A DNA stretch of 32,055 bases from Candidatus Woesearchaeota archaeon. Its GTDB lineage: Archaea > Nanobdellota > Nanobdellia > Woesearchaeales > GW2011-AR4. Position 1 is the stretch's first letter. Each line of letters starts with the position of its first letter. The position numbers were made by a program, and so were the translations under genes. The notes under the pieces are model-generated. The model was not told the origin of the DNA, made no database searches, and saw only the letters and a list, made by a program, of their open reading frames with translations. Of the stretch, positions 1-32,055 are shown piece after piece. The stretch covers positions 1 to 32,055 of the forward strand of contig JACPMQ010000006.1 of the NCBI GenBank assembly GCA_016185955.1, written 5' to 3'.

Positions 1-172
1 AAATATAGGAACGGAACATCTATTACGATTATTGACTTCCGTTCCTATACTTTGTGTTCTCTAGCATAGTGGCGCAATAATTATTGTTCCATTATTTAGT
101 TGCGCCACTATACGCACAAGCACTTACTTTCGCAAAAACCCCACTTACCGAAAAAATTCTGTTAGCAGTCAC
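1..172 (+). mobile_element. MITE-like modular palindromic element, copy 1 (left part cut off by window start)
   Basis: Ends in TGTTAGCAGTCAC (160-172); carries the CGCACAAGCA and TTCGCAAAAACCC boxes; 51-126 is identical to 22559-22634; hairpins at 4-16/37-49 and 66-77/100-111. Confidence 0.85.
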
Positions 173-180
173 TGTGCAAA

Positions 181-194
181 GAAAAATTTATAAA
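181..194 (+). promoter_or_regulatory. Putative BRE/TATA box for the pdh operon
   Basis: GAAAAA-TTTATAAA about 50 nt upstream of the ATG at 245; GGAG at 235-238. Confidence 0.45.
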
Positions 195-244
195 CATACT
201 AAAAAACCGAAATCTTGATTTTATTTGATTTTATGGAGCTGTAA

Positions 245-1312
245 ATGGTAAAAAAAGTAGTAGCTGATTTTAAGGTGGAGTATTTGCAGGTAATGGATGA
301 AGAAGGCAAAATTGACAGGAAGCTTATGCCGGATTTGCCTGACAAGCAGATAAAGGAAATGTATGAGCTGATGGTTTTAATGCGTACTTTTGATGACAAG
401 GCTTTTTCTCTGCAAAGGCAAGGCAGGATAGGAACTTACATACAGTTTAAAGGGCAGGAAGCGTCTCAATTAGGAACTGCTTACGCTCTTAAAGATATGG
501 ACTGGATATTCCCAATGTACAGAAGCGGAGGAGCTTTAATTGCAAGAAAGCATCCAATGCACATGATTTTGCAATATTATGGCGGAGATGAAAGAGGGCT
601 AAAAAGCCCGGAAAATGTAAATAATTTTCCAATTTCAATTCCGGTAGGAACACAGACACCGCACGCTGTAGGATGTGCATGGGCATCAAAGCTGAAAAAT
701 GAGAAAACTGTTTCATTGGTTTACACTGGCGACGGAGGAACTTCAAAAGGGGACTTTCATGAAGGCTTGAATTTTGCCGGAGTTTTTAAGGTTCCATGCA
801 TTATTGTATGCGAAAATAACCAATATGCAATTTCTGTTTCAAGAAAACAGCAGACAGCTTCGGAAACAATTGCCCAAAAGGCAATTTCTTACGGCATAAA
901 TGGCACACAAGTAGATGGAAATGATATTTTTGCAGTTTACAAAGCCGCTAAAGAGGCTGTGGACAATGCAAGAAATGGGAAAGGAGCCACATTAATTGAA
1001 TGTATTACTTATCGGCTTGCAGACCACTCTACATCAGATGATGCAAAAAGATACAGAAATGATAAAGAAGTTGAGTCATGGACAAAAAAAGATCCGATAA
1101 TAAGACTGGAAAAATATATGAGAAGCAAAAAACTGCTTGATGACAAATATAAGGAAGAGGTTGCAAAAAAAGCAAAAGAGCAGGTTGAAAAAGAAGTTAT
1201 GATTTATGAAAACACAAAAGACCCTGATGCTGAAGATATGTTTAGATACACTTATGCTGAAATGACAGGTAATCTTAAGGAGCAGCTAAATCAGCTTAAC
1301 GAGCTAATATGA
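245..1312 (+). CDS. pdhA: Pyruvate/2-oxoacid dehydrogenase E1 alpha subunit
   Basis: LQRQGRIGTY; TPP-binding GDGGTS...NN motif; YRLADHSTSDD. Confidence 0.93.
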   Translation: MVKKVVADFKVEYLQVMDEEGKIDRKLMPDLPDKQIKEMYELMVLMRTFDDKAFSLQRQGRIGTYIQFKGQEASQLGTAYALKDMDWIFPMYRSGGALIARKHPMHMILQYYGGDERGLKSPENVNNFPISIPVGTQTPHAVGCAWASKLKNEKTVSLVYTGDGGTSKGDFHEGLNFAGVFKVPCIIVCENNQYAISVSRKQQTASETIAQKAISYGINGTQVDGNDIFAVYKAAKEAVDNARNGKGATLIECITYRLADHSTSDDAKRYRNDKEVESWTKKDPIIRLEKYMRSKKLLDDKYKEEVAKKAKEQVEKEVMIYENTKDPDAEDMFRYTYAEMTGNLKEQLNQLNELI

Positions 1313-2277
1313 GCAAAATGAATATAGTGCAGGCTGTAAACTCAGCGTTAAGAAACGAGCTTCAGAGAGACAAAAGAGTCATGATTTTAGGAGAAGATGT
1401 TGGAAAAAACGGAGGAGTTTTTAGATGCACGGATGGATTGCAGCAGGATTTTGGTGATAATAGAGTTGTTGACACTCCATTGTCAGAAGTCGGAATTATC
1501 TCAACATCAATTGGGCTTGCGGTAAATGGAATGCTGCCTGTAGCAGAAATACAGTTCTCAGGATTTATTTATGCTCCTTTAGACCAATTAGTTACTCATG
1601 CTGCGCGAATACGGTCAAGAAGCAGGGGCAGATTTTCAGTTCCCCTTGTTGTAAGAGCACCTTTTGGCGGCGGCATAAGGGCTTTGGAATTGCATTGCGA
1701 ATCTGTTGAGACAATATTTTCGCATATTGCCGGCTTGAAGGTGGTTATTCCCTCTCATCCTTACGATGCAAAGGGCCTTTTAATCTCTGCTATAAGAGAT
1801 CCTAATCCAGTTATTTTTCTCGAGCCGATGCGCGTTTACAGGGCAATAAAAGAAGAAGTTCCTGATGAGCCATATACCATACCATTAGGCAAAGCTGAAG
1901 TAGAGCAGGAAGGCTCTGACTTAACTGTTATTTCTTATGGCGCTATGATGAAATACACAAAAGAGGCTCTTGAAAAATCAAATTATTCTGCAGAGATTAT
2001 TGATGTCAGAACAATATCTCCATTGGATACAGATACCATAATAAATTCTGTAAAAAAAACAGGAAGATGCGTAATAGTCCATGAAGCCCAAAAAACATGC
2101 GGCTTTGCAGCAGAGATAATAGCAAGAATAAATGAAAAATGTTTTTTTAATTTAGAGGCTCCAATAGAAAGAGTGACAGGTTTTGATGTTCCATTTCCCT
2201 TTGCAAAGCTTGAAAATTATTATCTTCCTGATGAAAAAAGAATTTTGAAAGCAGTGGATAAAGTGATGAGCCAATAA
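1309..2277 (+). CDS. pdhB: Pyruvate/2-oxoacid dehydrogenase E1 beta subunit
   Basis: GEDVGKNGGVFR, DTPLSE, EIQF, DAKGLLISAIRDPNPVIFLE; ATGA overlap with pdhA. Confidence 0.93.
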   Translation: MSKMNIVQAVNSALRNELQRDKRVMILGEDVGKNGGVFRCTDGLQQDFGDNRVVDTPLSEVGIISTSIGLAVNGMLPVAEIQFSGFIYAPLDQLVTHAARIRSRSRGRFSVPLVVRAPFGGGIRALELHCESVETIFSHIAGLKVVIPSHPYDAKGLLISAIRDPNPVIFLEPMRVYRAIKEEVPDEPYTIPLGKAEVEQEGSDLTVISYGAMMKYTKEALEKSNYSAEIIDVRTISPLDTDTIINSVKKTGRCVIVHEAQKTCGFAAEIIARINEKCFFNLEAPIERVTGFDVPFPFAKLENYYLPDEKRILKAVDKVMSQ

Positions 2278-2289
2278 TAAACCAATAAA

Positions 2290-3552
2290 ATGCCATACGA
2301 ATTCAAATTTCCGGATGTTGGAGAAGGTATTACTGAAGGAATAATAGTGAAGTGGAAAGTAAAGGAGCGCGATAATGTAAAAATAGACCAAATTATAGCA
2401 GATATAGAGACAGACAAAGCTGTTGTAGAAATACCAAGCCCTAAAGAAGGCATTATCTTAAAACTCTACCATAAGGAAGGAGAAACAATTAATGTGGGAG
2501 ATGTTCTTGCTGTAATAGGAGAAGAAAATGAATCCATAGGCATAAAGCAGGAAGCTAAAATAGAAGGAAAAAAAGAAGACAAAAAGCCTTATACTGGCAG
2601 CGTTGTGGGATTTCTTGAGGAAGCGTCTGACGAAGCAGAAAAGAAAGAGATAAAAAAAGGGATAAAAACAGATTCAGCAACAAAAAAAATTCTTGCAGCT
2701 CCTGTTGTAAGAAAGCTTGCAAAGGAATTAAATGTCAATCTTGAAAATGTTGCTGGAACCTGCGATGATGGAAAAATAAGTGAAGAGGACGTTAAAAAAT
2801 TTGCCGCTAAAACTGCGGAAAAAAAGCCAGCAATTAAAGTGACAAAAAAATATGATTTCTTCGGCTATGTTGAAAGAGTGCCTCTAAAGGGCATAAGAAA
2901 AATTACTGCGCAAAAAATGAGGGAAGCGGTTATGAATGCAGCATTAGTCACACATCATGACCATATTGACGTAACAAAGCTTTCAGATTTAAGAACAAAA
3001 GAAAAAGAAAATGCAGCGAAAAAAGGAGTTAAATTAACTTATCTTCCGTTTATAATAAAAGCCGCAATAGAAGCTTTAAAAAAGCATCCTTATGTGGCAT
3101 CAAGCATTGAAAACGATGAGGTAATAATAAAAAAATATTATAATATTGGAGTTGCTATTGACACTCCAGACGGCTTGATAGTTCCTGTCATCAAGGGCGC
3201 TGATCAAAAAAGTTTAGCTGATTTATCTGTTGAAGTCAGCAATTTTGTTGAAAAGGCAAAAACAAGAAAAATTGATTTAATGGAGCTTAAAGGCGGAGTT
3301 TTTACAATAACAAATATAGGAGTCATAGGAAGCACTTATTTTACCCCAATAATAAATTATCCTGAAAGCTGTATTCTTGGAACTGGAAGAATAGAAGACA
3401 GGGCGTCAGTTGTTAATGGCAAAATTGAGATAAGAAAAATAATGCCGATTTCATTTACTTATGACCATAGAGTAATTGATGGCGCGGAAGCAGCAAGATT
3501 CATGAATGACTTAAGAATATTGCTGGAAAGTCCTGATTCTTTGTTTTCGTAA
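2290..3552 (+). CDS. pdhC: Dihydrolipoamide acyltransferase E2
   Basis: Lipoyl domain ETDKA, E3-binding domain (APVVRKLAKE), catalytic DHRVIDG. Confidence 0.93.
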   Translation: MPYEFKFPDVGEGITEGIIVKWKVKERDNVKIDQIIADIETDKAVVEIPSPKEGIILKLYHKEGETINVGDVLAVIGEENESIGIKQEAKIEGKKEDKKPYTGSVVGFLEEASDEAEKKEIKKGIKTDSATKKILAAPVVRKLAKELNVNLENVAGTCDDGKISEEDVKKFAAKTAEKKPAIKVTKKYDFFGYVERVPLKGIRKITAQKMREAVMNAALVTHHDHIDVTKLSDLRTKEKENAAKKGVKLTYLPFIIKAAIEALKKHPYVASSIENDEVIIKKYYNIGVAIDTPDGLIVPVIKGADQKSLADLSVEVSNFVEKAKTRKIDLMELKGGVFTITNIGVIGSTYFTPIINYPESCILGTGRIEDRASVVNGKIEIRKIMPISFTYDHRVIDGAEAARFMNDLRILLESPDSLFS

Positions 3553-3837
3553 AATTCCACCGTTCATAGAACGGTGGTTTTTTAGCAGCATTGCTTTTTT
3601 CTTAAGCCCGTGCGCAAATCCATGCAAATTGCCATTGCTTGCAACAACCCTATGGCACGGCACCATATTTTTTGTTTTGCACTCTAAAATGCCATAAGGA
3701 TTTTTGTTTAAGGCATTTCCCACTGCGCGATATGCCTTGCTTCCAATTTTTTTAGCTATTTCCTTGTACGTCGAAACTTTGCCTTTGGGAATTTTTCTGC
3801 ACGCTTCCCAGACTTTTTTATTGAAATTTTCGCTCAT
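3511..3837 (-). CDS. ogt: Methylated-DNA--protein-cysteine methyltransferase (MGMT family)
   Basis: IPKGKVSTY, RAVGNAL, active-site PCHRVV; atypical C-terminus overlapping pdhC. Confidence 0.88.
   Translation of the reverse strand: MSENFNKKVWEACRKIPKGKVSTYKEIAKKIGSKAYRAVGNALNKNPYGILECKTKNMVPCHRVVASNGNLHGFAHGLKKKAMLLKNHRSMNGGILRKQRIRTFQQYS
3557..3577. repeat. Perfect 9-bp-stem palindrome between convergent genes (terminator or REP-like)
   Basis: CCACCGTTC-ATA-GAACGGTGG, followed by a T-run on the + strand. Confidence 0.6.
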
Positions 3838-3839
3838 TC

Positions 3840-5096
3840 TTAATGCTCATTATCCAACGCCACTATATTTTCAAAATTTCTTTTATTTTGCTTTCCCTTA
3901 TACTTCCTTGCAGCATTGATAATTTTTTCACGGCTTAATATTATGCCTTTTTCTTTTAACAATTTTGATATATTTTCTGAAATTAGAAAATCACAAAATT
4001 GCGTTACATTGCTCGGCTTAAAGGCGTAATGCGCCCTTTCAAAATCTATTAATATCGGAATAGTTTTTTTATTAATTAAAATATGCTTTACTGGATGCGA
4101 CATTTCTTCCTTATTTATTTTTAGCTTGTCCATCACAAAAAGCTGGGAAAGGATGCTTTTTAATGCCTTTAAAACGGTTTTTTTGTTTTTATTTGAGGCT
4201 AAGAAATCAATAATATTAATGCCGTCAATGAATTCATAAACAAAAAACTCATGGTGCATTAAAAGCAATTTTGGCCCAATTTTGTGCTTGTTCAGCAATT
4301 TTAGATTCTTAATTTCATTGTCGATTCTTAAAATTGCCTCACTTTCAGGATTTTTTATTTTTATTGCAATTTTTTTGTTTTTATAAATTCCAGTAAAAAC
4401 AAGCCCTCTTTTTCCTTTTGCAAAAAACCTTATCTTTTTTATTTTACTTTGCTCCAGTTCCTTTAAAGTTTTGGATTTTTTTATTAGGCAAACATAAATA
4501 TCTTCAAAAAAATAATGTTGCTTTTCCAGAATTTCATATTCAAGCAGATTGTTTCTTATAAACTCATTGACCTTTTCCATTTTTGTCAGAGAAGAAAAAG
4601 CAAGAAGGATTATACCATTTAAACTCAAAAAATTGTTAGCTTCATTAAGAAATTTTTCTATAACTTCATAGCCTTTTTTGCCTCCTTCAATTGTCAAATC
4701 CTTAACTTTAAGCTCGCTTGGAAGATAAGGCGCATTAAATATAATTGTGTCAAATTTCTTATTTTTAAGGTTTCTTTTCTTTAAAGCTTCAAATAAGTCA
4801 GAAACCATAAATTTTATTTTGCAAGAAAATAGTTTGGATTTTTTGTGTCCTGAAAATCTTCGATTCTCATGGATTTCATTTTTTATATTTTTTTTGCAAT
4901 ATTTAATTACATCCTCTTGAATGTCAACTGCTAAAACTGATTTTACTTTAGGGCAATTTACAGCAGCAATTGCCTGTATTCCGGAGCCTGTCCCCATATC
5001 CAAAACATTTCCTTCAGCATATTGCACCACATATTTTTTAAGCAAAACGCTGTCTTCTTTCGGTTCATAAATTGAGCAGTTTTTGGTTTCTGTCAT
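3840..5096 (-). CDS. HemK2/MTQ2-type methyltransferase fused to a C-terminal kinase-like (COG2112-like) domain
   Basis: YEPKEDS, VLDMGTGSG, FNAPYLP; C-half has AKGKRG loop, IAIK, KEEMSHPVKH, IDFE. Confidence 0.82.
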   Translation of the reverse strand: MTETKNCSIYEPKEDSVLLKKYVVQYAEGNVLDMGTGSGIQAIAAVNCPKVKSVLAVDIQEDVIKYCKKNIKNEIHENRRFSGHKKSKLFSCKIKFMVSDLFEALKKRNLKNKKFDTIIFNAPYLPSELKVKDLTIEGGKKGYEVIEKFLNEANNFLSLNGIILLAFSSLTKMEKVNEFIRNNLLEYEILEKQHYFFEDIYVCLIKKSKTLKELEQSKIKKIRFFAKGKRGLVFTGIYKNKKIAIKIKNPESEAILRIDNEIKNLKLLNKHKIGPKLLLMHHEFFVYEFIDGINIIDFLASNKNKKTVLKALKSILSQLFVMDKLKINKEEMSHPVKHILINKKTIPILIDFERAHYAFKPSNVTQFCDFLISENISKLLKEKGIILSREKIINAARKYKGKQNKRNFENIVALDNEH

Positions 5097-5109
5097 TTTT
5101 TAGTTCTAA

Positions 5110-5193
5110 TGGACTTGGGGGGATTCGAACCCCCAGCCTTCACCCTTTTCTAAAAGATGCGAAGGTGACGTCATGCCGTTAGACCACAAGCCC
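5110..5193 (-). tRNA. tRNA-Ala(CGC) with 12-nt canonical 37/38 intron (5146-5157)
   Basis: Acceptor GGGCTTG/CAAGTCC with G3:U70; anticodon stem TCACC/GGTGA; T-arm GGGGG-TTCGAAT-CCCCC. Confidence 0.9.
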
Positions 5194-5237
5194 ATAGCAA
5201 TGAGAAATTGAATTTGATTTTTTAACATTGCTTTTTT

Positions 5238-5522
5238 GTAACTGCTAACATCACTTTGTCCGAAAAGATGGGTTTTTGCAAATTATTATTCGTTGCTTGT
5301 GCGGAGCCGTAAAAATCCCGCCGTTTGCGAACAGCAAAGTTTTTACAAGTTACGTTGGTAATCTTGCAATTCGGCATTGTTTTGCTTTGGCCGTTGCTCG
5401 TCATTGACAAAACCGATAAACCACGCATTTGGCATCATTTTGCCTTGGCCACGGCTTGTCACTATCAAATTACGCACAAGCACTTAATTCGCAAAAACCC
5501 TTTATGTTGTGTTAGCAGTTAC
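5238..5522 (+). mobile_element. MITE-like element, copy 2 (285 bp, distinct interior)
   Basis: Perfect 13-bp TIR GTAACTGCTAACA (5238-5250/5510-5522); inner paired boxes; flanked by 7-bp direct repeat CTTTTTT (5231-5237/5523-5529). Confidence 0.88.
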
Positions 5523-6047
5523 CTTTTTTAACCCCTCTAAAACCAGCCTTACTAATTCATTTGGATTTTCAGAATAAACAACATTCTCTTTTTCATTTTC
5601 TTTGTTGCATATTTCTGCAATTTTTTTTATGATGCTGGTTATGCCTCCCGACTCTTCTAAAACTCCTATAACCTTTTTGTAATGGAAAGCTATTGTAAAC
5701 TCGTTTAATGTTCCAGTTTGCCCAGAAATCAGTATTATTGCATCAGCTTCCTTAACCAATGGGAAATTTCTGGCTGGTATTCCTAATCCTGTGTATTCAA
5801 TCTCTGTAAAATTTTCTTTAGGGAACAAATATTTTTTTGTATGCTCTTCCTCATTCTGGGCAGGGCTTATGCCAAGGACTTTTCCCCCTATGGAAAAAGC
5901 GCCTTTTGCAGCTTCGTAAGGATACCCATTTCCAGCTCCTGTAAGCAGCAAAATATTATTTTTAGCAAGCTGTTTGCCAATTTCAAATGCCTTTTTTGCT
6001 ATATCTTTATCCACCGCAAAGCTAGAGCCACATACTGCAATTTTCAT
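5502..6047 (-). CDS. LOG/SLOG family protein (TIGR00725-like)
   Basis: KIAVCGSS, LLTGAGNG, RN..V...DA.I.ISG.TGTLNE; start taken as ATG 6047; stop codon lies inside the repeat element. Confidence 0.82.
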   Translation of the reverse strand: MKIAVCGSSFAVDKDIAKKAFEIGKQLAKNNILLLTGAGNGYPYEAAKGAFSIGGKVLGISPAQNEEEHTKKYLFPKENFTEIEYTGLGIPARNFPLVKEADAIILISGQTGTLNEFTIAFHYKKVIGVLEESGGITSIIKKIAEICNKENEKENVVYSENPNELVRLVLEGLKKVTANTT

Positions 6048-6092
6048 TAATTGAAACAAGATAGAATACTATTTAAAGTTTTAGGAAGTAAA

Positions 6093-6219
6093 AGCGAGGG
6101 CTGGGACTCGAACCCAGGAATAAGAGGGCACTGCAAACAAGGTTTGTACGTGTTGAATTGCAGCCTCTCGCCTTAGCCGCTTGGCTTTAAGGTAGTTATA
6201 AATTGTCACTAACCCTCGC
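6093..6219 (-). tRNA. tRNA-Cys(GCA) with two introns: 8/9 (6187-6211, 25 nt) and 37/38 (6129-6157, 29 nt)
   Basis: Acceptor GCGAGGG/CCCTCGC, U73, anticodon stem AGAGG/CCTCT with CT-GCA-A, T-arm CTGGG-TTCGAGT-CCCAG; both inserts form BHB-like junctions. Confidence 0.85.
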
Positions 6220-6323
6220 ATAGCGGACTAACCTCTCGCATTGCTAAAAGCAATTTTTGTTGCTTTTCAACATGGTCAAAGCCCATATACTTATAAAAAT
6301 TTCCAAAACTCGGCTCTTCAATG

Positions 6324-6866
6324 TCAAACTTTTACCTTCCTGACAACAGCTATCCACAATGTTTCAAGGTATCTTGAAGCAGCCCCTAAGGGAGTAATTC
6401 TGCTTAAATTCTTAAATGCTGTTTTAAAATAGATTACGCCCCAATCTTCTACTTCATTTAAAAGCTTATCACTATAACCATTTAATTTATCTAGCTCTTT
6501 ATAGCTTATAATGCCATTAAAGGCATTATTTATGCCGTCTTGTATGCGGCTAAATAATTTGCTTGTAGCGTTATATACTCCATTATAGGCTGAATATACT
6601 GAACTGTAAAAGCTTTCAAAAATTGCATAAAGATTGCTAAAGCCTTTTTCATTACTTTTTGCCTTTTTTGAATAATTTCTGTCATTAAGCTCTTTGTCAA
6701 TTACCTGAGCCATACTTGCCAGCTTTATTTGCTCTGAAATATCTTTAGCATCCTCTGAAGAAAGCTTATTGCCTTGCATAGTTATTTTGCTTTTTTTTGG
6801 TTTTACAAGTTCTGGTTTTTCTCTCTCTAAAAACCTAGTGTCTATAATAGTTTCAAGGCTTATCAT
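6324..6866 (-). CDS. Hypothetical protein
   Basis: 180-aa ORF with ATG start and Lys-rich composition like neighbouring genes; no motif recognised. Confidence 0.6.
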   Translation of the reverse strand: MISLETIIDTRFLEREKPELVKPKKSKITMQGNKLSSEDAKDISEQIKLASMAQVIDKELNDRNYSKKAKSNEKGFSNLYAIFESFYSSVYSAYNGVYNATSKLFSRIQDGINNAFNGIISYKELDKLNGYSDKLLNEVEDWGVIYFKTAFKNLSRITPLGAASRYLETLWIAVVRKVKV

Positions 6867-6915
6867 AGTGGGAGTTTTAACTATAAAAATTGCGAAGTTT
6901 AAAAATTTATTTGCT

Positions 6916-22069: not shown

Positions 22070-22154
22070 AAAAAAATAGATAGTGCAGTAATTTAAATAA
22101 TTATCTTTTTTCTATCGCTATTCGCGAGAATTTCGCAACAACCCTCTGTTCGTG

Positions 22155-22363
22155 GTAAATACTAACACCTCTTATTCTAAATATATATAGAACATTAAAG
22201 TGGCTGCTCCAAAATAAGGGGCGGTGGGCGGGCAGAAGAATGCTAATTGTGCTATCAAAATGGCGTGTATCTGTAAGATATTTTTATTATAAAAAAGAAT
22301 CAAGATGCGCCATTTTGCCTGTAGCGCGGCTCTGGAGCAGCCACTTATATTGTTAGCAGTTAC
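22155..22363. mobile_element. MITE-like element, copy 3: second subfamily sharing only the TIR (209 bp)
   Basis: GTAAATACTAACA...TGTTAGCAGTTAC; inner perfect IRs AAGTGGCTGCTCCA (22198-22211/22333-22346) and CAAAATGGCG (22256-22265/22308-22317). Confidence 0.75.
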
Positions 22364-22371
22364 AAAAAATC

Positions 22372-22670
22372 GTATCTGCTAACATAGATTTGTCCGAGAA
22401 GCAGGGTTTTTGCGAAAGTCTAATCCGTGCTTGTGCGGAGCCTTAACTTACCTCTCAGCTTCGCAACATTTCATGTTGCTCAGGTCGTTTATCACAATCT
22501 TAAGAAATTTTCTGAATTGGCAATTACAGCGGAGAACACAAATAATTTATTAAAATAGTTTGTGTTCTCTAGCATAGTGGCGCAATAATTATTGTTCCAT
22601 TATTTAGTTGCGCCACTATACGCACAAGCACTTAATTCGCAAAAACCCTTTATGTGGTGTTAGCAGTTAC
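22372..22670 (+). mobile_element. MITE-like element, copy 4 (299 bp; core plus two extra hairpin modules)
   Basis: GTATCTGCTAACA...TGTTAGCAGTTAC; core shared with 26119 and 31821 copies; 94-bp insert 22528-22621. Confidence 0.88.
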
Positions 22671-22732
22671 CATCAAACCAAAAATATAAATATCTCTTGT
22701 ATTAATGAGCAAAATATAAAGGAGTTATTTCA

Positions 22733-25150: not shown

Positions 25151-25163
25151 GAAGATATACCTA

Positions 25164-26099
25164 TTATTTCTCCAAAACCAAAATTTTTCTTGTCAAATTC
25201 CCGTGCACATAGCTTTCAAACTCGCTCTTTAATTTCAATTTTGATTTTTTTAGCAATTTTTTGTAGTTTACATAACTGGGAAATATTATCACTGCCCTTT
25301 TTATCAAAATCAATTCCAATTTTTTTATAACATCAAAATAAAATTTTTCAATATATTTTTTTAATAATTTTTTGTTTGATTTTGTAATCCTTACTTTGCC
25401 CATTATTGCAGCGTTTAAGCCATAGGGAAGATCAGAAACAATAAATTTGTATTTCCTGTCAATGCTGAAAAAATCCTTTACTTCCAATTCATAATTTTTT
25501 ATTTTGTAATGCCTTAAATTAACCATTGATTTCCAAATCATTTTTTTGTTTATGTCAAAGCCTATCGCCTTTAAGCTTATAAGCCCTGCTTCTATTAAAA
25601 TGCCTCCGGAGCCGCAGAAAGGGTCAAGTATAAGCTCGTTTTTTCCGGCTTTGGTTAAGTTAACCATTGCCCTTGCGAGCCTTGGATTGACTTTAGGCTT
25701 TTTTACATTTTTCCAGATATATGACGCAATATTGCTTTCTGAAAAAATTTCCTTGAATGCATTTTTGCCGTTGCTTTTTTTATTATTAAAATCTGAAAAT
25801 TCCGGAAATAATTTTTTAATCCTGACGCAAAAGCTGCCCTTGTAAACAGAATTCCAGTTAAAATTTTCCATGCATTTTAAAAAATTTTTATAGTCTGACT
25901 CAAAAAGCAGAAGAGATATGGAATTTGTGTATGCCAATCTTTTTGCAGCTTCATTGATGCTTATTCTTTCATTTTTTTTAGATGTGCATAAAACAAGCAC
26001 ATTTTCAATTAATTCACAGGATTTTGAATTTATGAGAGACAAAACTTCTTCCTTCGCAAGCGCAAGGTCATTTTTCAACAAGACAAAGATATATTTCAT
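25164..26099 (-). CDS. tRNA m2G10 methyltransferase (Trm11/TrmG10-like, THUMP + MTase); apparent internal deletion
   Basis: PRLARAMVNL, LDPFCGSGGILIEA, SDLPYG, YVHGNLTR; start taken as ATG 26099. Confidence 0.75.
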   Translation of the reverse strand: MKYIFVLLKNDLALAKEEVLSLINSKSCELIENVLVLCTSKKNERISINEAAKRLAYTNSISLLLFESDYKNFLKCMENFNWNSVYKGSFCVRIKKLFPEFSDFNNKKSNGKNAFKEIFSESNIASYIWKNVKKPKVNPRLARAMVNLTKAGKNELILDPFCGSGGILIEAGLISLKAIGFDINKKMIWKSMVNLRHYKIKNYELEVKDFFSIDRKYKFIVSDLPYGLNAAIMGKVRITKSNKKLLKKYIEKFYFDVIKKLELILIKRAVIIFPSYVNYKKLLKKSKLKLKSEFESYVHGNLTRKILVLEK

Positions 26100-26118
26100 G
26101 TTTAATGGCTTTAACTCC

Positions 26119-26305
26119 GTAACTGCTAACACAACCTAAGGGGTTTTTGCGAATTCTTATTCGTGCCTGTGCGGAGCCTTATACTCCTCTCAACTTCGCA
26201 ATGCTGCGGCATTGCTCAGGTCGCTTATCACAATCCTGTGAAACTTTCAGAATTGGCAATGACGCACAAGCACTTAATTCGCAAAAACCCCCTGTTAGCA
26301 GTTAC
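26119..26305 (+). mobile_element. MITE-like element, copy 5 (187 bp minimal form) with 8-bp target-site duplication
   Basis: Perfect 13-bp TIR; flanked by TTAACTCC at 26111-26118 and 26306-26313. Confidence 0.92.
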
Positions 26306-26370
26306 TTAACTCCGAAAGATTTAAATATTCTGCATTTAAGAGTTTTATTTCGGTTGCATTTTGCGTGAAA

Positions 26371-29300
26371 ATGATTAAAAAAAGAGGGGTTTGTAGCTAT
26401 AACTTATTGAATTATCTAATTTTGTCTTCTATATTCTCTGTTTTTTTTGTTTCCCTTTCTGCTGTTTCATTTGGCGTTGTTATAGAGCGCAATGTTACCT
26501 TGCAGGACTTTAACTTTAACTCGTCATCAACCTTTAACTTTACAACCAACAGAACTGCGCCTTTTGGTTATTTGAAATTTTATAATCTTTCCAATCCTTA
26601 CAGCAATGCTTATATAGAAGCAACTCAAGGCGCAAAATTATTGCAATTGGGGCATGGGACAAATTATCAGGATTTTGTTGATACTTTTAAAAAAGTGCCC
26701 TTAGCCAATTTTACAGATTTTATGAGCACGAAGTATGGCTCTTTCTCTTCTATTATGGTGTGGTCTAACACTATTATCGGTTTTATTATCCCAAACTCAA
26801 CAGATGGTTCTGAAGGAGGCTATTATTATGCCGCTATTTATATTATTGAGTTTAATATTAGCAGATCTGATATTCCATTTGCTAATATTACTTTTTATTA
26901 TAAATTCAACAACCAGTCTGGAAATAACACATTCGGCGATTTGGGAACATGTGCTGCGCATAATGATTTCCAAAGCTGCTTAGCGGATGTGCAGAATGAC
27001 TGTGACTGGAATAACCAAAAAGGGGTATGTGAGCAGAGCACCTATAGCTTTTCACCAATGTTACCAGCAGCAGAATGCGGAATGCTTCCAAAATTTGCAT
27101 GTGACGCCATTAATAGCAGTTATTGCCTATGGAATCCAAGCAGCGGCAAGCAAGGCAAATGCGAGCCTCAAGGAAGCATTAATCCAATTTATGGGTTTAA
27201 TTGCACTGCTGTAACTAACCATACCGTATGCAATGACCAGCACTTTACAGAGAAAACCGGATTATGCACTTGGGACAGTACAATAGCTAAGTGCCAAATA
27301 AATAAAACGAAAACCAATAGGGATATACCTACTCCAGCAGTATATTCATGCGAGGCTCCTGGATATATAGATAATAGAACAAAGTGCCAAAATCTTTCAG
27401 ATACATATTTTATGCCATGCGGCTTTAACAACCAAACAAGCAGATGTGAAAATATGTTCTTTGACTTTGGCAAATTTGACAAATTTGAAGATATAGGAAG
27501 CTCATCAACATGCCAAAATGCAGGTGGCACATGGAGAACGGAAACTGCATTTGACCCATTAAATAATGGTGTTACTAGCGAAAGCTGGTGTGAGTTTGGT
27601 GTGGCTATCAAAACATTCTCTTCAGTTGGCTCTTCTGGCACAAAAATGTTTAGTGGTACAATTGGAACTCTAAATGATTGCAGCAGGGATTGCTTTGCAT
27701 GTGAATTTAATGGCACTGGAGGCAGATGGCAGAATGTATCAGTAGCGCAGTCACAGTGTGAAGCGTCTACTGTTGGATGCAAGTTTAGAGCAGACTCTAA
27801 CTCTTTTAATGGTTTTGGATGGTGTGATCCTGCAAGTGGCTTCGGTGGCTTTAATTGCAATTCTTTTTGTGGAGACTGCAACCTAATGCCTCAGCCAAAT
27901 GCGTCATGCGTAAATTCTGCTGCTAATTGCAAATGGGATAATGTCACTAATTTTTGTGTAGGTGCTGGAACAAAGGGCTGCGACCAAGATTGTATGCAGT
28001 GCTTTGGTCAAACAAGCTGCCAACATTCTACAAAAATGGGAGGCTGTCAATGGGACTCTTCAGGATTTTTCTGCAAGCCGCAAGGAGGAAGCTTTGAGAT
28101 ATGCTTTGATGGTGTGGATAATGACAATAATGGCAAAACTGATTGCGCAGATTTTAAATGTTCTACTGATTCTTTTTGCGCTGGCGCTGTTGGTGACTCT
28201 AAAGGATGCTTCCAGTTTGATGAATTTTCATATAAGCCTAGTGATGGAAAGAATCATGCCAGAGGCAATTGCACAGCTACAACAGGATGCACTTGGGTTA
28301 CTGAAGAATTTGGCTTTTCATACTGCGCTCCTTTATCAGAGCAGTGTTTCTTAAATGAAAGTTACCAAACAAGCGCTTCTTTATGTGAAAATGTAGGCGG
28401 CGGTAATATTTGTAAATTTAAGCCTGAGACTCATTGTGAGACTAACAAAACAATGGTTGCTGTATGCTCAACAATTACTGTTAAGGATACATGCAATGCT
28501 AATTCAAAATGCGCATGGAGCGGAGCCGATGTTGGTGGATTTTGTGATTTAAAGCCAATTGTGCTTTGCGAAGATAATCAAACATTACAAAGCGATCCTA
28601 CATTATGCAGAACCTCAGGATGCGCGTGGATTGGAAGCCAATTTGGAATGTTTGAAGGAGGCTTCCATCAGAGTTGCGTAAGCCCATGCGGAAACAGAAG
28701 CATAGCATCAGCACAGGATTGCGCAGATTCTCTTGGCACAACATTTGCTGCAGGCAGTTGCGTATGGAAAACAGGATTTTGTGAGCCTGCAGACTTTATG
28801 GGAGGCTGTATGCAGAAAGATGGAGACTATAATGCTTGCAAATCAAATGGAAATTGCAAATGGAATGAAGCAATCTATGCACCTTTAAAACATCTAAATG
28901 GCTCGTCAAGTTTCCAAGATTATATGAATCCGAATGCTACAACATGGCTGGCTATAGGATTAAACTTGCCTATTGGCGGAGCAAATGAATCTGTTTATAA
29001 TTTAACTAAGATAATAGGCGGAAGCTATCTGGCTTTAGTAATGGCAAATGGCTCAAATACACAACTAAATATCTCGAGGCTATACTGTAATAATGATGTT
29101 TTAATGGAATACAATTGGTCAAAAGGAGAGACAGGAGAGGGTAGATGCCAAAAAGGAAGCTGTGATCGTTATAATAATTCCTATTTATGTGATGGAGACA
29201 GAGTCCATTATTACCTCCAAAATGTTACAAGGCAGCTGGAAGTGCTGTGGGAAGTTTCTATTGGATTGTTAAGATTGGATTCTAATGAAAATGACACTAA

Positions 29301-31806
29301 CGTTACAACTACACTCAACATCTCAACTGTTGTTATAAATGGAAACTTATCTGAGCATGTAACTGAAAATGCAACTGCCAAAGATGGCACAAATGCCACA
29401 AGAGTAAGAATATCAACAGGATTCTGCAATGACGGGCTTATGAATACCTTTTTTGCCGGCATGGATCAAGAGCCACCAATACCTATAGCAGCAGATAGAA
29501 CTTCAGATTTAAGCAGCGATACACCAAGCGATCATAGTTATTTAGATATTACTGGATTGGGAGTTAAAAAAACTCCAGAAGCTTATGCTTATGGAATACC
29601 TACTGCAAGTATGACTGGCTCAGCAATCTGTAATGCTGTTCCGTTGCAAGGAGGCTCATTTGGCAGAGGCACAAACAGCTCGAAATATTATCTGCATTTA
29701 GATACTGATGGCGTTCGCAGCGGTGGCTGTTCTCCAGAAGATAATACTACACTTCAAGGCTTTGAATACAGGTTTAAGTATGTAGCTGAGATAGGAAATG
29801 ATGGAAGGTTAACAGAAACTGTCTTAAGCCAGAAATGCTCAAATCAGGCATGGGTTGCAACAAATGTGCCGTTTAAATCAGACAGAAATAAGGGGTGCGG
29901 GTTTGTTAGCGGCCCTATTTTTGCAATAGACAAAAATACTTTTACAGGCAAGAGTGATGTTAATACAAGCGTTGGATGGAGAGCTTATGCGACAAGTGCG
30001 CATTCAGCAGGCAACGCGTCAAATGTTTCTGATAGAATAGGACCGGGCAGCGCTGATTTCAAAGGAATAGATGTTACTCTTGTAGACTGCACAAGCACTG
30101 CTGATAAGGATAATTCACAATGCACTAAATTCAAGCAGTTTGGATTTTTCCCAGGAGAATTTGGACCGGCTTGCATAGACAGCATAGATAATGACGGTGA
30201 TACTTTAACTGACTGCAATGACTTTGACTGCAAATATGATCCTTTCTTCTGCTCCGGAAGCTTTACTGCTTTAGCAGATGACAGCACAGCGCCTACATTA
30301 GTCTGGACTAAAGTCAATGACAAGCTTACAAATATGATTTCATTTATTTTTGATACAGGTGAGCCTGCAAACGGAACTGTAAGATTTTATAACAATGATT
30401 CACAATGCTCAACTTTAAATAACACTTTAAAGGATAAGGCATTGGAAGATAATGATGTATTTACCAATTACAGGCCTCATCATGTAACAGAGCTTACAGG
30501 GCTAGCTGCTAATAAGACATACTACTACAAATATGAAGTATGTGATCCGAGCGGCAATTGCGCAATAAGCAAATGCAGCAATGTAACTACCTCTTCAGCA
30601 TATTCTAATATAACATTTAAGTTAGATATACCGACTAACTGGAGTGTGGAAATCCCAAGCATAAACTTAACTAACTATACTCTGCCATATGCGTTAAAAG
30701 CATCTTCGCAGTTTTTGAACAATATTAATATAACCATTAGAAAGCAAGACAATACAAGCGCTATAACCTTTGTAGGAGTTGATATTTTTGAGAAACAATC
30801 ACTTAATGTTTCACAATTTGTTACAGGAAGCGGTTATGTTGGAATTGATGCTAACCAGTATCAGAGCTTTAAGCAAAAAGCAGGCATGGAAGAAGCTTTT
30901 GTTAAAATACCTTCAACAGGAGATACTGTAAGCCATTGTGATGACAGTGGCGCTAATTGCAAGGAAGTTACAAGCAAATTGACATGCACGTTTAAGACTT
31001 CTTATAGTGATTGTAAAGTGCCAGATGCTGTTGGATTGGGATTTTCAACATACAAGGCATCAACATCAAGCAGCAGCAGTTCAAGCTCTTCTTCAAGCTC
31101 TTCTTCAAGCTCTGGCGGCGGTGGAGGAGGAACTGCACCATTAACAAGCGCAAAAGAAGGCTCTTCAAAGACACAGTTTTGGCAGACAATAACAGCAGGA
31201 CAATCTTTAAACATGAATGTTGATAAGACAGACATACCTATTAAAAAATTGATAGTTACTTCCAAAAACACGCTTTCTAATGTGGAATTAAAGGTGGCAG
31301 TGCTTAAAGAAGCTCCAACTACACAAACAAGCCTTACAAACTCCGTTTACAAGTACATTTCAGTTGAAAAGAAAAATATAAAAGATGAGGATACAGGCAA
31401 TGTAGAAATTGAATTTAAGGTGGAAAAATCTTGGCTAACACAAAATAATATTAATGAAGACGATGTATTGCTTGCAAGATACACTGCATCATGGGAGATG
31501 CTTCCAACAACAAAGCAAAGCTCAGATGCTGCTTATGTAAATTATAAGGCAACTACTCCCGGATTTAGTTATTTTGCTATAGTAAGCAAGGAATCTCCAG
31601 TTGTAAGCGCGCCATTAGAGACTGTAACTGAATCAAAAATAACAGAGCAGCCAATAATACCAACTGCAGAAGTGGCTGTGCAAATACCGGAAAAAGAAAA
31701 AGTTGTTGCAAAAACAAGCAAAACAAGATATTGGTTTGCTATTACTGCATTAATACTTGCAGTACTTTCAGCATTTATGTGGTATAAAAAAAGGTCTGAA
31801 GACTAA
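26371..31806 (+). CDS. Large Cys-rich cell-surface glycoprotein with PGF-pre-PGF domain
   Basis: Signal peptide; many C-x-W...C repeats; two CxDxxDNDxxxxxDCxDxxC motifs; Fn3-like region; poly-Ser/Gly linker; TPGFSYFAI; C-terminal TM plus basic tail. Start may be GTG 26365. Confidence 0.85.
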   Translation: MIKKRGVCSYNLLNYLILSSIFSVFFVSLSAVSFGVVIERNVTLQDFNFNSSSTFNFTTNRTAPFGYLKFYNLSNPYSNAYIEATQGAKLLQLGHGTNYQDFVDTFKKVPLANFTDFMSTKYGSFSSIMVWSNTIIGFIIPNSTDGSEGGYYYAAIYIIEFNISRSDIPFANITFYYKFNNQSGNNTFGDLGTCAAHNDFQSCLADVQNDCDWNNQKGVCEQSTYSFSPMLPAAECGMLPKFACDAINSSYCLWNPSSGKQGKCEPQGSINPIYGFNCTAVTNHTVCNDQHFTEKTGLCTWDSTIAKCQINKTKTNRDIPTPAVYSCEAPGYIDNRTKCQNLSDTYFMPCGFNNQTSRCENMFFDFGKFDKFEDIGSSSTCQNAGGTWRTETAFDPLNNGVTSESWCEFGVAIKTFSSVGSSGTKMFSGTIGTLNDCSRDCFACEFNGTGGRWQNVSVAQSQCEASTVGCKFRADSNSFNGFGWCDPASGFGGFNCNSFCGDCNLMPQPNASCVNSAANCKWDNVTNFCVGAGTKGCDQDCMQCFGQTSCQHSTKMGGCQWDSSGFFCKPQGGSFEICFDGVDNDNNGKTDCADFKCSTDSFCAGAVGDSKGCFQFDEFSYKPSDGKNHARGNCTATTGCTWVTEEFGFSYCAPLSEQCFLNESYQTSASLCENVGGGNICKFKPETHCETNKTMVAVCSTITVKDTCNANSKCAWSGADVGGFCDLKPIVLCEDNQTLQSDPTLCRTSGCAWIGSQFGMFEGGFHQSCVSPCGNRSIASAQDCADSLGTTFAAGSCVWKTGFCEPADFMGGCMQKDGDYNACKSNGNCKWNEAIYAPLKHLNGSSSFQDYMNPNATTWLAIGLNLPIGGANESVYNLTKIIGGSYLALVMANGSNTQLNISRLYCNNDVLMEYNWSKGETGEGRCQKGSCDRYNNSYLCDGDRVHYYLQNVTRQLEVLWEVSIGLLRLDSNENDTNVTTTLNISTVVINGNLSEHVTENATAKDGTNATRVRISTGFCNDGLMNTFFAGMDQEPPIPIAADRTSDLSSDTPSDHSYLDITGLGVKKTPEAYAYGIPTASMTGSAICNAVPLQGGSFGRGTNSSKYYLHLDTDGVRSGGCSPEDNTTLQGFEYRFKYVAEIGNDGRLTETVLSQKCSNQAWVATNVPFKSDRNKGCGFVSGPIFAIDKNTFTGKSDVNTSVGWRAYATSAHSAGNASNVSDRIGPGSADFKGIDVTLVDCTSTADKDNSQCTKFKQFGFFPGEFGPACIDSIDNDGDTLTDCNDFDCKYDPFFCSGSFTALADDSTAPTLVWTKVNDKLTNMISFIFDTGEPANGTVRFYNNDSQCSTLNNTLKDKALEDNDVFTNYRPHHVTELTGLAANKTYYYKYEVCDPSGNCAISKCSNVTTSSAYSNITFKLDIPTNWSVEIPSINLTNYTLPYALKASSQFLNNINITIRKQDNTSAITFVGVDIFEKQSLNVSQFVTGSGYVGIDANQYQSFKQKAGMEEAFVKIPSTGDTVSHCDDSGANCKEVTSKLTCTFKTSYSDCKVPDAVGLGFSTYKASTSSSSSSSSSSSSSSSSGGGGGGTAPLTSAKEGSSKTQFWQTITAGQSLNMNVDKTDIPIKKLIVTSKNTLSNVELKVAVLKEAPTTQTSLTNSVYKYISVEKKNIKDEDTGNVEIEFKVEKSWLTQNNINEDDVLLARYTASWEMLPTTKQSSDAAYVNYKATTPGFSYFAIVSKESPVVSAPLETVTESKITEQPIIPTAEVAVQIPEKEKVVAKTSKTRYWFAITALILAVLSAFMWYKKRSED

Positions 31807-31820
31807 GTTCTTGATTTTGG

Positions 31821-32055
31821 GTAACCGCTAACACAGCATAAAGGGTTTTTGCGAAAGTAAGTGCTTGTGCGTAATTGCCAATTCAGAAAACTCCATAGGA
31901 TTGTGATAAGCGACCTGAGCAACATGAAATGTTGCGAAGCTGAGAGGTAAGTTAAGGCTCCGCACAAGCACTAAATTAAACTTTCGCAAAAACCCACCTT
32001 AAGGCTTTGTCATGGCACAGACGGACTTGTCGGACAAATCTATGTTAGCAGATAC
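31821..32055 (-). mobile_element. MITE-like element, copy 6 (235 bp, inverted orientation, ends at the last base of the window)
   Basis: GTAACCGCTAACA (31821-31833)...TGTTAGCAGATAC (32043-32055); core is the near-identical reverse complement of 22427-22527. Confidence 0.88.

What the first reader, a model, noticed from the sequence alone, without database searches (positions are those of the whole stretch)
1..32055. Dispersed family of modular, nested-palindrome non-coding elements (6 copies in 32 kb)
Seen: copies at 1-172, 5238-5522, 22155-22363, 22372-22670, 26119-26305 and 31821-32055 share a 13-bp TIR (consensus GTAACTGCTAACA). Five also have two inner paired boxes (GGGTTTTTGCGAA/TTCGCAAAAACCC and TGCTTGTGCG/CGCACAAGCA) with spacers from 2 to about 47 nt. 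The interior differs by whole modules, and segments are shared mosaically: copy 1 matches copy 4 for 76 bp, then matches copy 6 (CACTTACTTTCG). No transposase or integrase is in the window. Inference: a non-autonomous mobile scaffold that folds into one long stem and gains or swaps structured cargo. I do not recognise it as a described element.
Basis: partly seen in the sequence, partly recalled or inferred. Interest (0 to 1): 0.82.

Follow-up and report, generated by a model that had tools for sequence, protein, structure and literature searches.

The report
Layered miniature transposons in tiny archaeon
The six "nested palindromes" are copies of small non-coding jumping elements (MITEs) that riddle this tiny groundwater archaeon's genome: older folded mini-elements have been wrapped in the end sequences of an IS66-type transposon, which then multiplied them.

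Summary
In detail: the 13-bp inverted repeat and both inner boxes lie at the stated coordinates, far above chance. The elements are MITEs, a known kind. The 984-kb assembly holds 225 matches to the repeat; repeats make up 5.4% of it and sit at 102 of 166 contig ends. Of 74 complete copies, 17 have perfect 8-bp target duplications (0.42 expected). The same repeat ends 1.35-kb IS66-family (ISBst12-like) insertion sequences in related archaeal and metagenome contigs, so that transposase is the likely driver. None is in this assembly. The nested boxes have a history. The GGGTTTTTGCGAA and TGCTTGTGCG boxes are the ends of an older ~150-bp MITE (ends GGTTGGTGCGAA, 9-bp duplications). It occurs without the outer repeat in 11 of 12 congeneric genomes and about 10 times in this genome. 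A second folded core (window 22198-22346) carries the IS66-type ends here, and in some sister-genome copies the ends of an unrelated PF01609-type IS. The mosaicism comes from nested insertions, core inversion and recombination. The cores' helices are kept by compensated changes but show no RNA-type strand bias. Earlier notes of this scan flagged the same elements elsewhere in this genome. A published census already reports about 105 MITEs/Mb in a Woesearchaeal genome.

The parts
1..172 (+). Copy 1: right part of a shelled B-type element, cut by the contig start. Contains hairpin H3 (4-49), right arm of H1 (51-61), hairpin H2 (67-110), box2 right arm (113-122), box1 right arm (129-141), an 18-nt spacer, and the right outer repeat (160-172, GTGACTGCTAACA).
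   Evidence: It is 99.3% identical to G000:C38:838-1062 and belongs to the youngest subfamily, which ends at least 14 contigs.
5238..5522 (+). Copy 2 (285-bp subfamily, 4 complete copies). Outer repeats at 5238-5250 and 5510-5522, box1 at 5270-5282 and 5488-5500, box2 at 5294-5303 and 5473-5482. The interior 5304-5472 is module Y: a hairpin plus two ~57-nt direct repeats that replace the B-core interior.
   Evidence: Module Y was found only in G000 among 26 genomes searched. The flanks GCTTTTTT / CTTTTTTA share a 7-nt repeat offset by one base. The stop end of ORF 5502-6059(-), which has a SLOG/LOG-like domain, lies inside the right repeat.
22132..22144 (-). Remnant of an older-type box (GGTTGTTGCGAA) with no outer repeat. 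Probably the decayed end of a naked B-core element.
22155..22363 (-). Copy 3: family A (209 bp). Outer repeats at 22155-22167 (GTAAATACTAACA) and 22351-22363. The A-core is 22198-22346 and contains a conserved C-rich tract at 22218-22232.
   Evidence: There are 76 A-core copies in the genome.
22364..22371 (.). 8-bp A-rich spacer (AAAAAATC) between the tandem copies 3 and 4.
   Evidence: One of 17 head-to-head junctions in the genome. 12 of the 17 are exactly 8 bp, and all are A/T runs.
22372..22670 (+). Copy 4 (299-bp subfamily, 5 copies). Outer repeats at 22372-22384 and 22658-22670, long spacer 22385-22403, box1 at 22404-22416 and 22636-22648, box2 at 22428-22437 and 22621-22630, B-core interior about 22438-22526, and the inserted two-hairpin module X at about 22527-22620.
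   Evidence: Module X stands alone in 6 of 12 congeneric genomes.
26111..26118 (.). Left copy of the 8-bp target-site duplication TTAACTCC of copy 5.
26119..26305 (+). Copy 5: family B (187 bp) without the long spacer. Outer repeats at 26119-26131 and 26293-26305, box1 at 26141-26153 and 26278-26290, box2 at 26164-26173 and 26263-26272, B-core interior 26174-26262.
   Evidence: There are 78 B-core interiors in the genome.
26306..26313 (.). Right copy of the target-site duplication TTAACTCC of copy 5.
31821..32055 (-). Copy 6: family B in reverse orientation (235 bp). Outer repeats at 31821-31833 and 32043-32055, box1 at 31843-31855 and 31983-31995, box2 at 31862-31871 and 31961-31970, and a 47-nt spacer at 31996-32042. 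The contig ends at the last base of the repeat.

Best explanation
The six copies belong to a superfamily of MITEs: short, non-coding, non-autonomous DNA transposons. In this Woesearchaeota-type (DPANN) archaeon they share the 13-bp terminal inverted repeat GTA(A/T)CTGCTAACA. They are moved in trans by a DDE transposase of the IS66 family (single-ORF, ISBst12-like), which makes 8-bp target duplications, often in A/T runs between genes. That step is inferred from matching ends and duplications, not observed. The nested palindromes are layers of history. Two older folded elements of about 150 bp (the B-core, with its own ends GGTTGGTGCGAA and 9-bp duplications, and the A-core) came to lie between a pair of IS66-type ends. 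The way they were captured is inferred; the likeliest route is insertion into a minimal IS66-derived MITE. These composites were then amplified to about 150 copies. Further small hairpin elements (module X, H3, module Y) inserted into them. The core flipped between its inverted boxes in some copies, and copies recombined, which produces the mosaics. The paired arms are best explained as DNA-level palindromes: transposase-binding ends and foldbacks kept symmetric by arm-to-arm correction. They do not look like an RNA under selection.
For: 1. Copy number and lineage specificity. The repeat (up to 1 mismatch) has 113 + 112 matches in G000, against 0-5 in each of 40 related genomes and 0-3 for the reversed control. 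There are 80 pairs, of which 3 are false, plus 70 contig-end half copies.
2. Target duplications. Of 74 evaluable pairs, 17 have a perfect 8/8 duplication and 3 more have 7/8. Permuted flanks give 0.42 and 1.14. No shifted register gives a perfect match, and 7-, 9- and 10-bp registers give 1, 0 and 0.
3. Autonomous partner. PF03050 ISs of about 1.35 kb were found. L070 has GTAACTGCTAACA at both ends. L069, L072, L074, L082, L099 and L100 have GTATCTGCTAACA. L062, from a Nanoarchaeia MAG, has GTATCTGCTAACG with the duplication CTTTTTTG. That is 7 of 88 loci within one mismatch at both ends, and 11 of 88 with perfect 8-bp duplications. A passage of PMC11946415 states that IS66 ends start GTAAGCG and make 8-bp repeats.
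4. The cores are older. The B-core matches in 11 of 12 congeners and in 2 other genera (13 of 24 genomes of the family, 0 of 16 outside it). There it has ends GAGGTTGGTGCGAA, 9-bp duplications and no outer repeat.
5. Both forms coexist in G000. 10 naked pairs have 9-bp duplications (4 perfect, 4 more at 8/9). Only 1 of 32 old-type boxes has an outer repeat next to it, against 147 of 166 derived boxes.
6. The A-core occurs in G003 (at least 20 matches), G006 (7) and G009 (1) without the GTAAC repeat. Six of the 20 fetched copies (plus a second fetch of the G009 copy) carry GCTTCATCCAAAAAA, the end of a PF01609 IS of G007. One of them (L176) has a perfect 9-bp duplication, GCGTTAACC.
7. Placement. 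Only 2 of 76 A-cores and 6 of 78 B-cores lie in crude ORFs, although the genome is 85.5% coding.
8. No described RNA family matches.
Against: No IS66-family transposase is in the G000 assembly: PF03050 gives 0 hits and tblastn with the L062 protein gives nothing. The assembly is 88% complete and breaks at repeats, so the driver is unobserved in this organism. 54 of 74 pairs lack a clear duplication; family A has only 3 perfect of 29. No empty site or excision joint was seen, so current mobility is not shown (only contigs were available). No partner IS was found for the B-core ends. How the cores got between the new ends is inferred, not seen. The cores show strong compensated pairing (18 of 41 pairs, against 6.9 in shuffles) and invariant unpaired blocks. 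That is more order than a neutral MITE interior needs.
Confidence: 0.82

Rival explanations
1. The cores (A-core, B-core, module X) are genes for structured non-coding RNAs with a cellular or selfish function, and the transposon ends merely carry them around. On this reading the conserved helices reflect selection on the RNA.
For: The consensus fold of the B-core has 95% of cells paired. 18 of 41 pairs are changed on both sides, against 6.9 +/- 1.6 in shuffles (0 of 500 reach it) and 2-6 in slid controls. An invariant U.G pair occurs in all 22 rows, and there are invariant unpaired blocks (CTCAGGTC, TTGG.AA). The A-core has 8 of 20 pairs compensated and a conserved unpaired C-rich tract.
Against: Among variable pairs, G.U cells (22) are no more frequent than A.C cells (25), counted by hand, so single changes show no RNA-strand filter. 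The distribution is patchy with very uneven copy numbers, from 0 to at least 20 per genome. The B-core has its own inverted ends and 9-bp duplications. No Rfam match was found. Orientation relative to neighbouring genes is only weakly biased, and the copies are not independent. Expression could not be tested.
Confidence: 0.12
2. The hairpin elements are REP/REPIN-like sequences spread by the single-copy Y1 (HUH) transposase of these genomes, as RAYTs spread REPINs in bacteria.
For: A PF01797 Y1 transposase gene is present once in G000 (C26:5922-6296) and in all 4 other genomes tested. No PF07282 (TnpB) domain passed the cut-off in any of the five. Module X is a pair of hairpins with no terminal inverted repeat, and no duplication was seen at the copies viewed.
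Against: HUH transposition makes no target duplications, yet shelled copies have 8-bp and naked B-cores 9-bp duplications. The outer ends match an IS66-type IS exactly. The Y1 gene's flanks contain none of these repeats: there is one weak unrelated hit. At most this could apply to module X.
Confidence: 0.04
3. The mosaic copies are assembly chimeras: real repeats exist, but their module combinations were mis-joined by a short-read assembler.
For: 102 of 166 contig ends lie in repeats. Public contigs of the holder runs break at the elements: X1 records end at 22181 and 31856, and one starts at 26261. Elements of 200-300 bp exceed usual read lengths.
Against: Whole subfamilies recur at several loci with unique flanks: 5 copies of the 299-bp type and 4 of the 285-bp type. 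All four allele combinations occur in balanced numbers (6, 6, 5, 6) for two sites only about 50 nt apart. Naked and shelled forms have different duplication lengths.
Confidence: 0.05

Closest known systems
Prokaryotic MITEs (for example Neisseria Correia elements and Sulfolobus SM elements; these names are recalled, not retrieved) and the MITE census of PMC11602168
   Same: Short and non-coding, with terminal inverted repeats, target-site duplications, a mostly intergenic position, many copies, and dependence on a transposase supplied in trans. A passage of the census names 'a Woesearchaea genome' with 105 MITEs/Mb among the densest archaeal genomes.
   Different: Here two or three sets of inverted ends are nested. 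The inner set belongs to an older MITE that still exists naked in the same genome with a different duplication length (9 against 8 bp). The census text holds neither 'IS66' nor 'nested' (0 occurrences each). Its supplementary tables, which might list this genome, were closed.
IS66 family, ISBst12 group (single-ORF DDE insertion sequences)
   Same: The partner ISs carry PF03050 and a single ORF of 413-444 aa in the four read through. They are 1.3-1.8 kb long, their ends start GTA, and they make 8-bp duplications. This fits the family description quoted in PMC11946415. The subgroup features are recalled.
   Different: The window elements share only the terminal 13-17 bases with these ISs. Their interiors are unrelated, so they are not deletion derivatives. 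No member of the IS family is assembled in this genome.
REP/REPIN elements with RAYT transposases of bacteria (recalled)
   Same: Abundant intergenic hairpins, and a single-copy Y1 transposase gene in the genome.
   Different: The elements here have target duplications and DDE-type inverted ends, and the Y1 gene is not flanked by the repeats.
Nested MITE insertions and foldback elements of eukaryotes (recalled)
   Same: Small elements sit inside other small elements and give layered palindromes.
   Different: Here the same core is found inside the ends of two unrelated IS families in different genomes: IS66-type in G000 and PF01609-type in G003/G009. I did not find this described in the searches.

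Membership tests
MITE | Short (tens to a few hundred bp) with no transposase gene | tested here: met
   The paired elements are 48-576 bp, with a mode of 204-210 bp. No transposase homology was found in G000 by PF03050 or by tblastn.
MITE | Terminal inverted repeats | tested here: met
   13-bp repeat: 11 matches in the window against 0.71 expected, and 225 in the genome against 1 for the reversed control.
MITE | Target-site duplication of fixed length | tested here: met
   17 of 74 pairs are perfect at 8/8 against 0.42 expected. Other registers give 0-1. 54 of 74 pairs lack a clear duplication.
MITE | Ends shared with an autonomous IS that can supply the transposase | tested here: met
   L070 has an exact 13/13 match at both ends, and six more loci carry the GTATCTGCTAACA variant. 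The IS was found in other DNA, not in this assembly.
MITE | Demonstrated mobility (empty against filled sites, or excision) | tested here: inconclusive
   Only contigs of four runs could be laid. None of the 15 joints shown (135 not shown) skips an element.
IS66 family (for the partner IS) | DDE_Tnp_IS66 domain | tested here: met
   PF03050 hits with E 1e-38 to 1e-92 in relatives. The L062 ORF of 425 aa is 51-52% identical to them.
IS66 family (for the partner IS) | Ends starting GTAA, and 8-bp direct repeats | tested here: met
   The ends start GTAACTG or GTATCTG. 11 of 88 loci have perfect 8-bp duplications. The family description comes from a passage of PMC11946415.
IS66 family (for the partner IS) | Accessory tnpA/tnpB genes of classical IS66 | tested here: not met
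   A single ORF fills the 1.3-kb element. This fits the ISBst12 subgroup (recalled), not classical three-gene IS66.
REP/REPIN with RAYT | The repeats flank the single-copy Y1 transposase gene | tested here: not met
   G000:C26:5500-6900 shares no repeat with the element families.
REP/REPIN with RAYT | No target-site duplication | tested here: not met
   8-bp and 9-bp duplications are present.
Described structured RNA family (Rfam) | Match to a covariance model at the gathering score | tested here: not met
   Only a tRNA matches in the window. The permissive searches of 22100-22700 and 5200-5560 gave only chance-level hits, E 0.12-0.62.

The most novel reading that the evidence does not exclude
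The folded cores are the persistent units, and transposon ends are exchangeable 'shells'. The same ~150-nt core is recaptured again and again by the ends of unrelated IS families: IS66-type here, PF01609-type in sister genomes, and its own older ends. On this reading the core is kept by selection, for one of two reasons. Its fold may bring any pair of flanking ends together and so make a superior substrate for whatever transposase is present. Or it may encode a small RNA or a protein-binding site, such as the conserved C-rich tract.
Probability: 0.2. Interest if true: 0.65.

Novelty: new variant of a known kind. Interest (0 to 1): 0.4.

Why it matters
DPANN archaea have some of the smallest cellular genomes, yet 5.4% of this assembly is made of these elements, and they cause most of its contig breaks. 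So they matter for assembly quality and for how such reduced genomes change. The case gives a clean natural example of how new MITE families arise. An old MITE, or another folded element, is placed between the 13-bp ends of a different IS and is then amplified by that IS's transposase. Both the old form (9-bp duplication) and the new form (8-bp duplication) survive side by side. It also names a testable driver, an ISBst12-like IS66-family transposase, for which MITE partners in archaea did not turn up in my literature searches.

Tried and rejected
1. Deletion derivatives of one IS: rejected. 12 partner ISs aligned against all 80 paired elements share only the terminal 17-22 bases.
2. A transposase hidden in the assembly. 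Self-blastn shows no repeat of 400 bp or more other than tandem MITEs and three diverged pairs. All 70 contig-end half copies match known MITE subfamilies. PF03050 gives 0 hits in G000 and tblastn gives nothing.
3. Partner IS for the inner (B-core) ends: not found. 16 PF01609 loci plus G000:C33 lack them. PF12762, PF00872 and PF01610 give 0 hits in 5 genomes each. My recollection that IS5 ends resemble GGTTGGTGCGAA stays untested.
4. Viral carriers: two pattern scans of viral contigs found nothing.
5. Sequencing runs: no RNA holder is listed. Laying the contigs of X1, X3, X5 and X6 showed no joint that skips exactly one element among the 15 joints shown (135 were not shown). The contigs simply stop at the elements. 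This is no evidence either way on mobility.
6. Orientation bias relative to genes. In the A family, the element's 3' side faces gene starts 36 times and gene ends 14 times, and the 5' side 40 against 30. In the B family, the 5' side gives 39 against 21 and the 3' side 25 against 34. These rest on crude ORF calls and non-independent copies, so I draw no conclusion.
7. Tandem dimers as T-A-T-B-T double insertions into one target. This fits C41 (upstream flank equals the spacer), but most junctions do not show it. The uniform A/T-run spacers remain only partly explained, by a target preference for A/T runs.
8. The A-core's own target duplications in relatives: none is evident.
9. The Y1/RAYT idea: see the rival explanations.


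Full report
OBSERVATION. GTAACTGCTAACA (up to 2 mismatches) has 11 matches in the window against 0.71 expected. They lie exactly at the ends of the six stated copies. The two inner boxes are also far above chance (14 against 1.43, and 12 against 1.81), and they are paired inside copies 1, 2, 4, 5 and 6 (sequences). The 76-bp identity of copy 1 (51-126) with copy 4 (22559-22634), and the switch to copy 6, are exact. The window is a whole contig (G000:C53) that starts and ends inside copies.

ORGANISM. A tRNA with a 15-nt intron points to an archaeon. Related contigs are titled Woesearchaeota or Nanoarchaeota. Earlier notes of this scan say the same.

GENOME-WIDE PICTURE.
- The 984-kb, 83-contig assembly (35.6% G+C) has 293 matches to the repeat at up to 2 mismatches. 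At up to 1 mismatch it has 225, against 1 for the reversed control. Each of 40 related genomes has 0-5.
- Pairing gives 80 elements of 48-576 bp with a mode of 204-210 bp. Three of these are false pairs caused by an internal look-alike and were dropped.
- A further 70 half copies run off contig ends, and all of them match known subfamilies.
- Clustering gives two main families. Family A has 28 complete copies (window copy 3) and family B has 25 (copy 5). Smaller variants have 299 bp (5 copies, copy 4), 285 bp (4 copies, copy 2) and 235 bp (2 copies, copy 6).
- Counting cores by blastn gives 76 A-cores and 78 B-core interiors.
- All repeats together mask 53,550 bp, or 5.4% of the assembly. 102 of 166 contig ends lie in a repeat.
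- Only 2 of 76 A-cores and 6 of 78 B-cores overlap crude ORFs, although 85.5% of the genome is coding by the same crude calls.

TRANSPOSITION SIGNATURE. Of 74 evaluable pairs, 17 have a perfect 8-bp direct repeat of the flanks and 3 more have 7/8. Permuted flanks give 0.42 and 1.14. No shifted register gives a perfect match, and registers of 7, 9 or 10 bp give 1, 0 and 0. Copy 5 in the window has TTAACTCC on both sides. By family, perfect duplications occur in 12 of 34 B copies, 3 of 29 A copies and 2 of 10 others. Several duplications are A or T runs.

THE DRIVER.
- No long multicopy repeat exists in G000, and no IS66-type gene.
- PF03050 (DDE_Tnp_IS66) genes occur in 4 of 12 congeners (one of them the unpublished G005) and in 1 other genome of the order. 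They are single ORFs of 413-444 aa in elements of about 1.3-1.6 kb whose ends start GTAT.
- I used these proteins to scan public contigs, which returned 88 loci. In 72 of them an inverted end pair was found.
- L070 is 1348 bp and has GTAACTGCTAACA at both ends. L069, L072, L074, L082, L099 and L100 have GTATCTGCTAACA, which is the second commonest variant among the window copies.
- L062 and L067, from a Nanoarchaeia MAG, have GTATCTGCTAACG and the duplication CTTTTTTG. The flank of L062 is 78-81% identical to G000 DNA.
- Eleven loci have perfect 8-bp duplications. Only the terminal 17-22 bases are shared between these ISs and the MITEs.
- A passage of PMC11946415 states that IS66 ends start GTAAGCG and make 8-bp repeats. 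That single-ORF members form the ISBst12 group is recalled; PMC8024623 lists the subgroup name only.

WHAT THE INNER BOXES ARE.
- The interior of family B matches DNA in 11 of 12 congeners (G005 among them) and in two other genera at 70-86% identity. That is 13 of 24 genomes of the family and 0 of 16 outside it.
- In those genomes the element is 141-152 bp and has no GTAAC repeat. It is bounded by GAGGTTGGTGCGAA / TTCGCACCAACCTC and flanked by 9-bp direct repeats, for example TATTACTGC, TTCTAATAC and AGATAAAGC.
- So GGGTTTTTGCGAA is a derived version of that older end, changed on both arms, and TGCTTGTGCG is the inner part of the same long terminal stem.
- G000 itself keeps 10 complete naked copies with the old ends. 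Their 9-bp duplications are perfect in 4 and 8/9 in 4 more.
- Only 1 of 32 old-type boxes has an outer repeat beside it, against 147 of 166 derived boxes. A decayed old-type box lies in the window at 22132-22144.

THE A-CORE BEHAVES ALIKE.
- It occurs in G003 (at least 20 matches), G006 (7) and G009 (1) at 69-77% identity. Two further hits of about 25 nt in G018 and G026 cover only the C-rich tract. Its own closing stem is GGGCTGTGCC / GGCACAGCCC.
- Of the 20 copies fetched, six (five from G003, one from G009; a second fetch of the G009 copy, L166, shows it too) carry GCTTCATCCAAAAAA outside the core on at least one side. This is the end of a PF01609 IS in G007 (L150). L176 has it on both sides with a perfect 9-bp duplication, GCGTTAACC.
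- Other G003 copies sit in further inverted shells.
- Hence one core is found inside the ends of two unrelated IS families in different genomes.

OTHER MODULES AND MOSAICISM.
- Module X (two hairpins, about 95 nt; window about 22527-22620 and 51-111) stands alone between genes in 6 of 12 congeners at up to 92% identity. In G000 at least 20 copies are 99-100% identical, so this is the youngest burst. In copy 1 a third hairpin (4-49) sits in its first loop.
- Module Y (5304-5472) was found only in G000 among 26 genomes.
- Family A is found inserted inside family B at C29 and C70.
- Relative to the shell's long spacer, the B-core points one way in 26 copies and the other way in 4. Four copies lack the spacer and one has it on both sides. 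This fits inversion between the inverted boxes.
- Four multi-allelic sites in 25 family B copies show all four combinations for 5 of 6 site pairs, which indicates recombination among copies. Assembly chimeras cannot be fully excluded.
- Seventeen head-to-head junctions exist. Twelve have exactly 8 bp between the repeats, and all spacers are A/T runs. The window junction at 22364-22371 is one of them.

STRUCTURE: DNA OR RNA?
- The B-core alignment has 22 rows from 6 genomes, one row from the unpublished G005. It folds into five helices with 95% of cells paired. 18 of 41 pairs are changed on both sides, against 6.9 +/- 1.6 in shuffles (0 of 500) and 2-6 in slid controls.
- The A-core has 8 of 20 pairs compensated.
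- Apart from one invariant U.G pair, G.U cells (22) do not outnumber A.C cells (25). I counted these by hand.
- A selected RNA should tolerate G.U and not A.C. A DNA palindrome treats both alike. I therefore favour DNA-level symmetry: transposase-binding ends, plus arm-to-arm correction of quasi-palindromes (an established mutational process, recalled).
- The invariant unpaired blocks keep the RNA or protein-site reading alive.
- Rfam gives nothing.

OTHER CHECKS.
- A single-copy Y1 transposase gene is present in G000 and in 4 of 4 other genomes tested, with no PF07282 (TnpB) hit above cut-off. Its flanks hold none of these repeats.
- Ten ORFs flanking or near the copies (of the window's 49 ORFs of at least 80 aa) encode housekeeping enzymes or have no Pfam match.
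- Holder runs are groundwater metagenomes from two studies. Only contigs were available, and they stop at the elements.

LITERATURE.
- Searches found no description of these families, of ISBst12-type MITEs in archaea, or of MITEs in Woesearchaeota beyond a census.
- Passages of PMC11602168 report MITEs in 20% of archaeal genomes, and name 'a Woesearchaea genome' with 105 MITEs/Mb among the densest. Its supplements were closed, so these families may already be listed there.
- Passages of PMC13343696 mention MITEs and IS66 in archaea only in passing.

VERDICT. These are a real, abundant family of layered MITEs, so they belong to a known class. Three points are new in my searches: the identified partner (an ISBst12-like IS66-family IS); the direct evidence that older MITE-like cores were re-armed with new ends; and the same core inside the ends of different IS families. 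Claims that include the unpublished genome G005 are the counts of 11 of 12 and 4 of 12, and one row of alignment A3. None of them depends on G005 alone.

Noticed in passing
window 5110-5193 (-): A tRNA gene with a 15-nt insert in the anticodon loop (an archaeal-type intron). Rfam found it at 55.7 bits, but ARAGORN missed it. MITE copy 2 lies 45 bp away.
   Followed up: no
window 26365-31806 (+): An ORF of 1813 aa with no Pfam match at E 1e-5. It lies directly between MITE copies 5 and 6.
   Followed up: no
window 5502-6059 (-): The stop end of a SLOG/LOG-like gene (PF18306) lies inside the right inverted repeat of copy 2, so the last codons of the ORF are MITE sequence.
   Followed up: partly
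G000:C26:5922-6296 (-), and G001, G003, G009, G020: A single-copy Y1 (HUH) transposase gene (PF01797) is present in all five genomes tested, with no PF07282 (TnpB) hit above cut-off. This pattern recalls bacterial RAYTs. Its flanks in G000 hold none of the repeats.
   Followed up: partly
window 22218-22232 (- strand: CCCGCCCACCGCCCC): A conserved, unpaired C-rich tract in every A-core copy of four genomes (G-rich on the other strand, capable of forming a G-quadruplex), in a genome of 36% G+C.
   Followed up: no
L015 (G003:C180:2405-2556): A 152-bp element in a sister species with the same GTATCTGCTAACA ends but an unrelated interior. It is a third kind of content between IS66-type ends.
   Followed up: partly
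G000:C33:378-998 (+): The only PF01609 (IS4/IS5-type) transposase hit in this assembly: an open frame of 318 aa, with no inverted ends detected nearby.
   Followed up: partly
L151 (G005, unpublished), L154 (G003), L156 (G037): PF01609 ISs of about 0.9-1.0 kb with ends starting GGC; two of them (L151, L156) have perfect 9-bp duplications. This shows that 9-bp-duplicating transposases are active in this archaeal family.
   Followed up: no
G000, 17 junctions, e.g. window 22364-22371: Tandem elements are separated by 6-8 bp A/T runs (12 of the 17 by exactly 8 bp). Family A always faces the junction with the same end in the copies inspected. The cause (target preference, dimer transposition or a junction intermediate) is unresolved.
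   Followed up: partly
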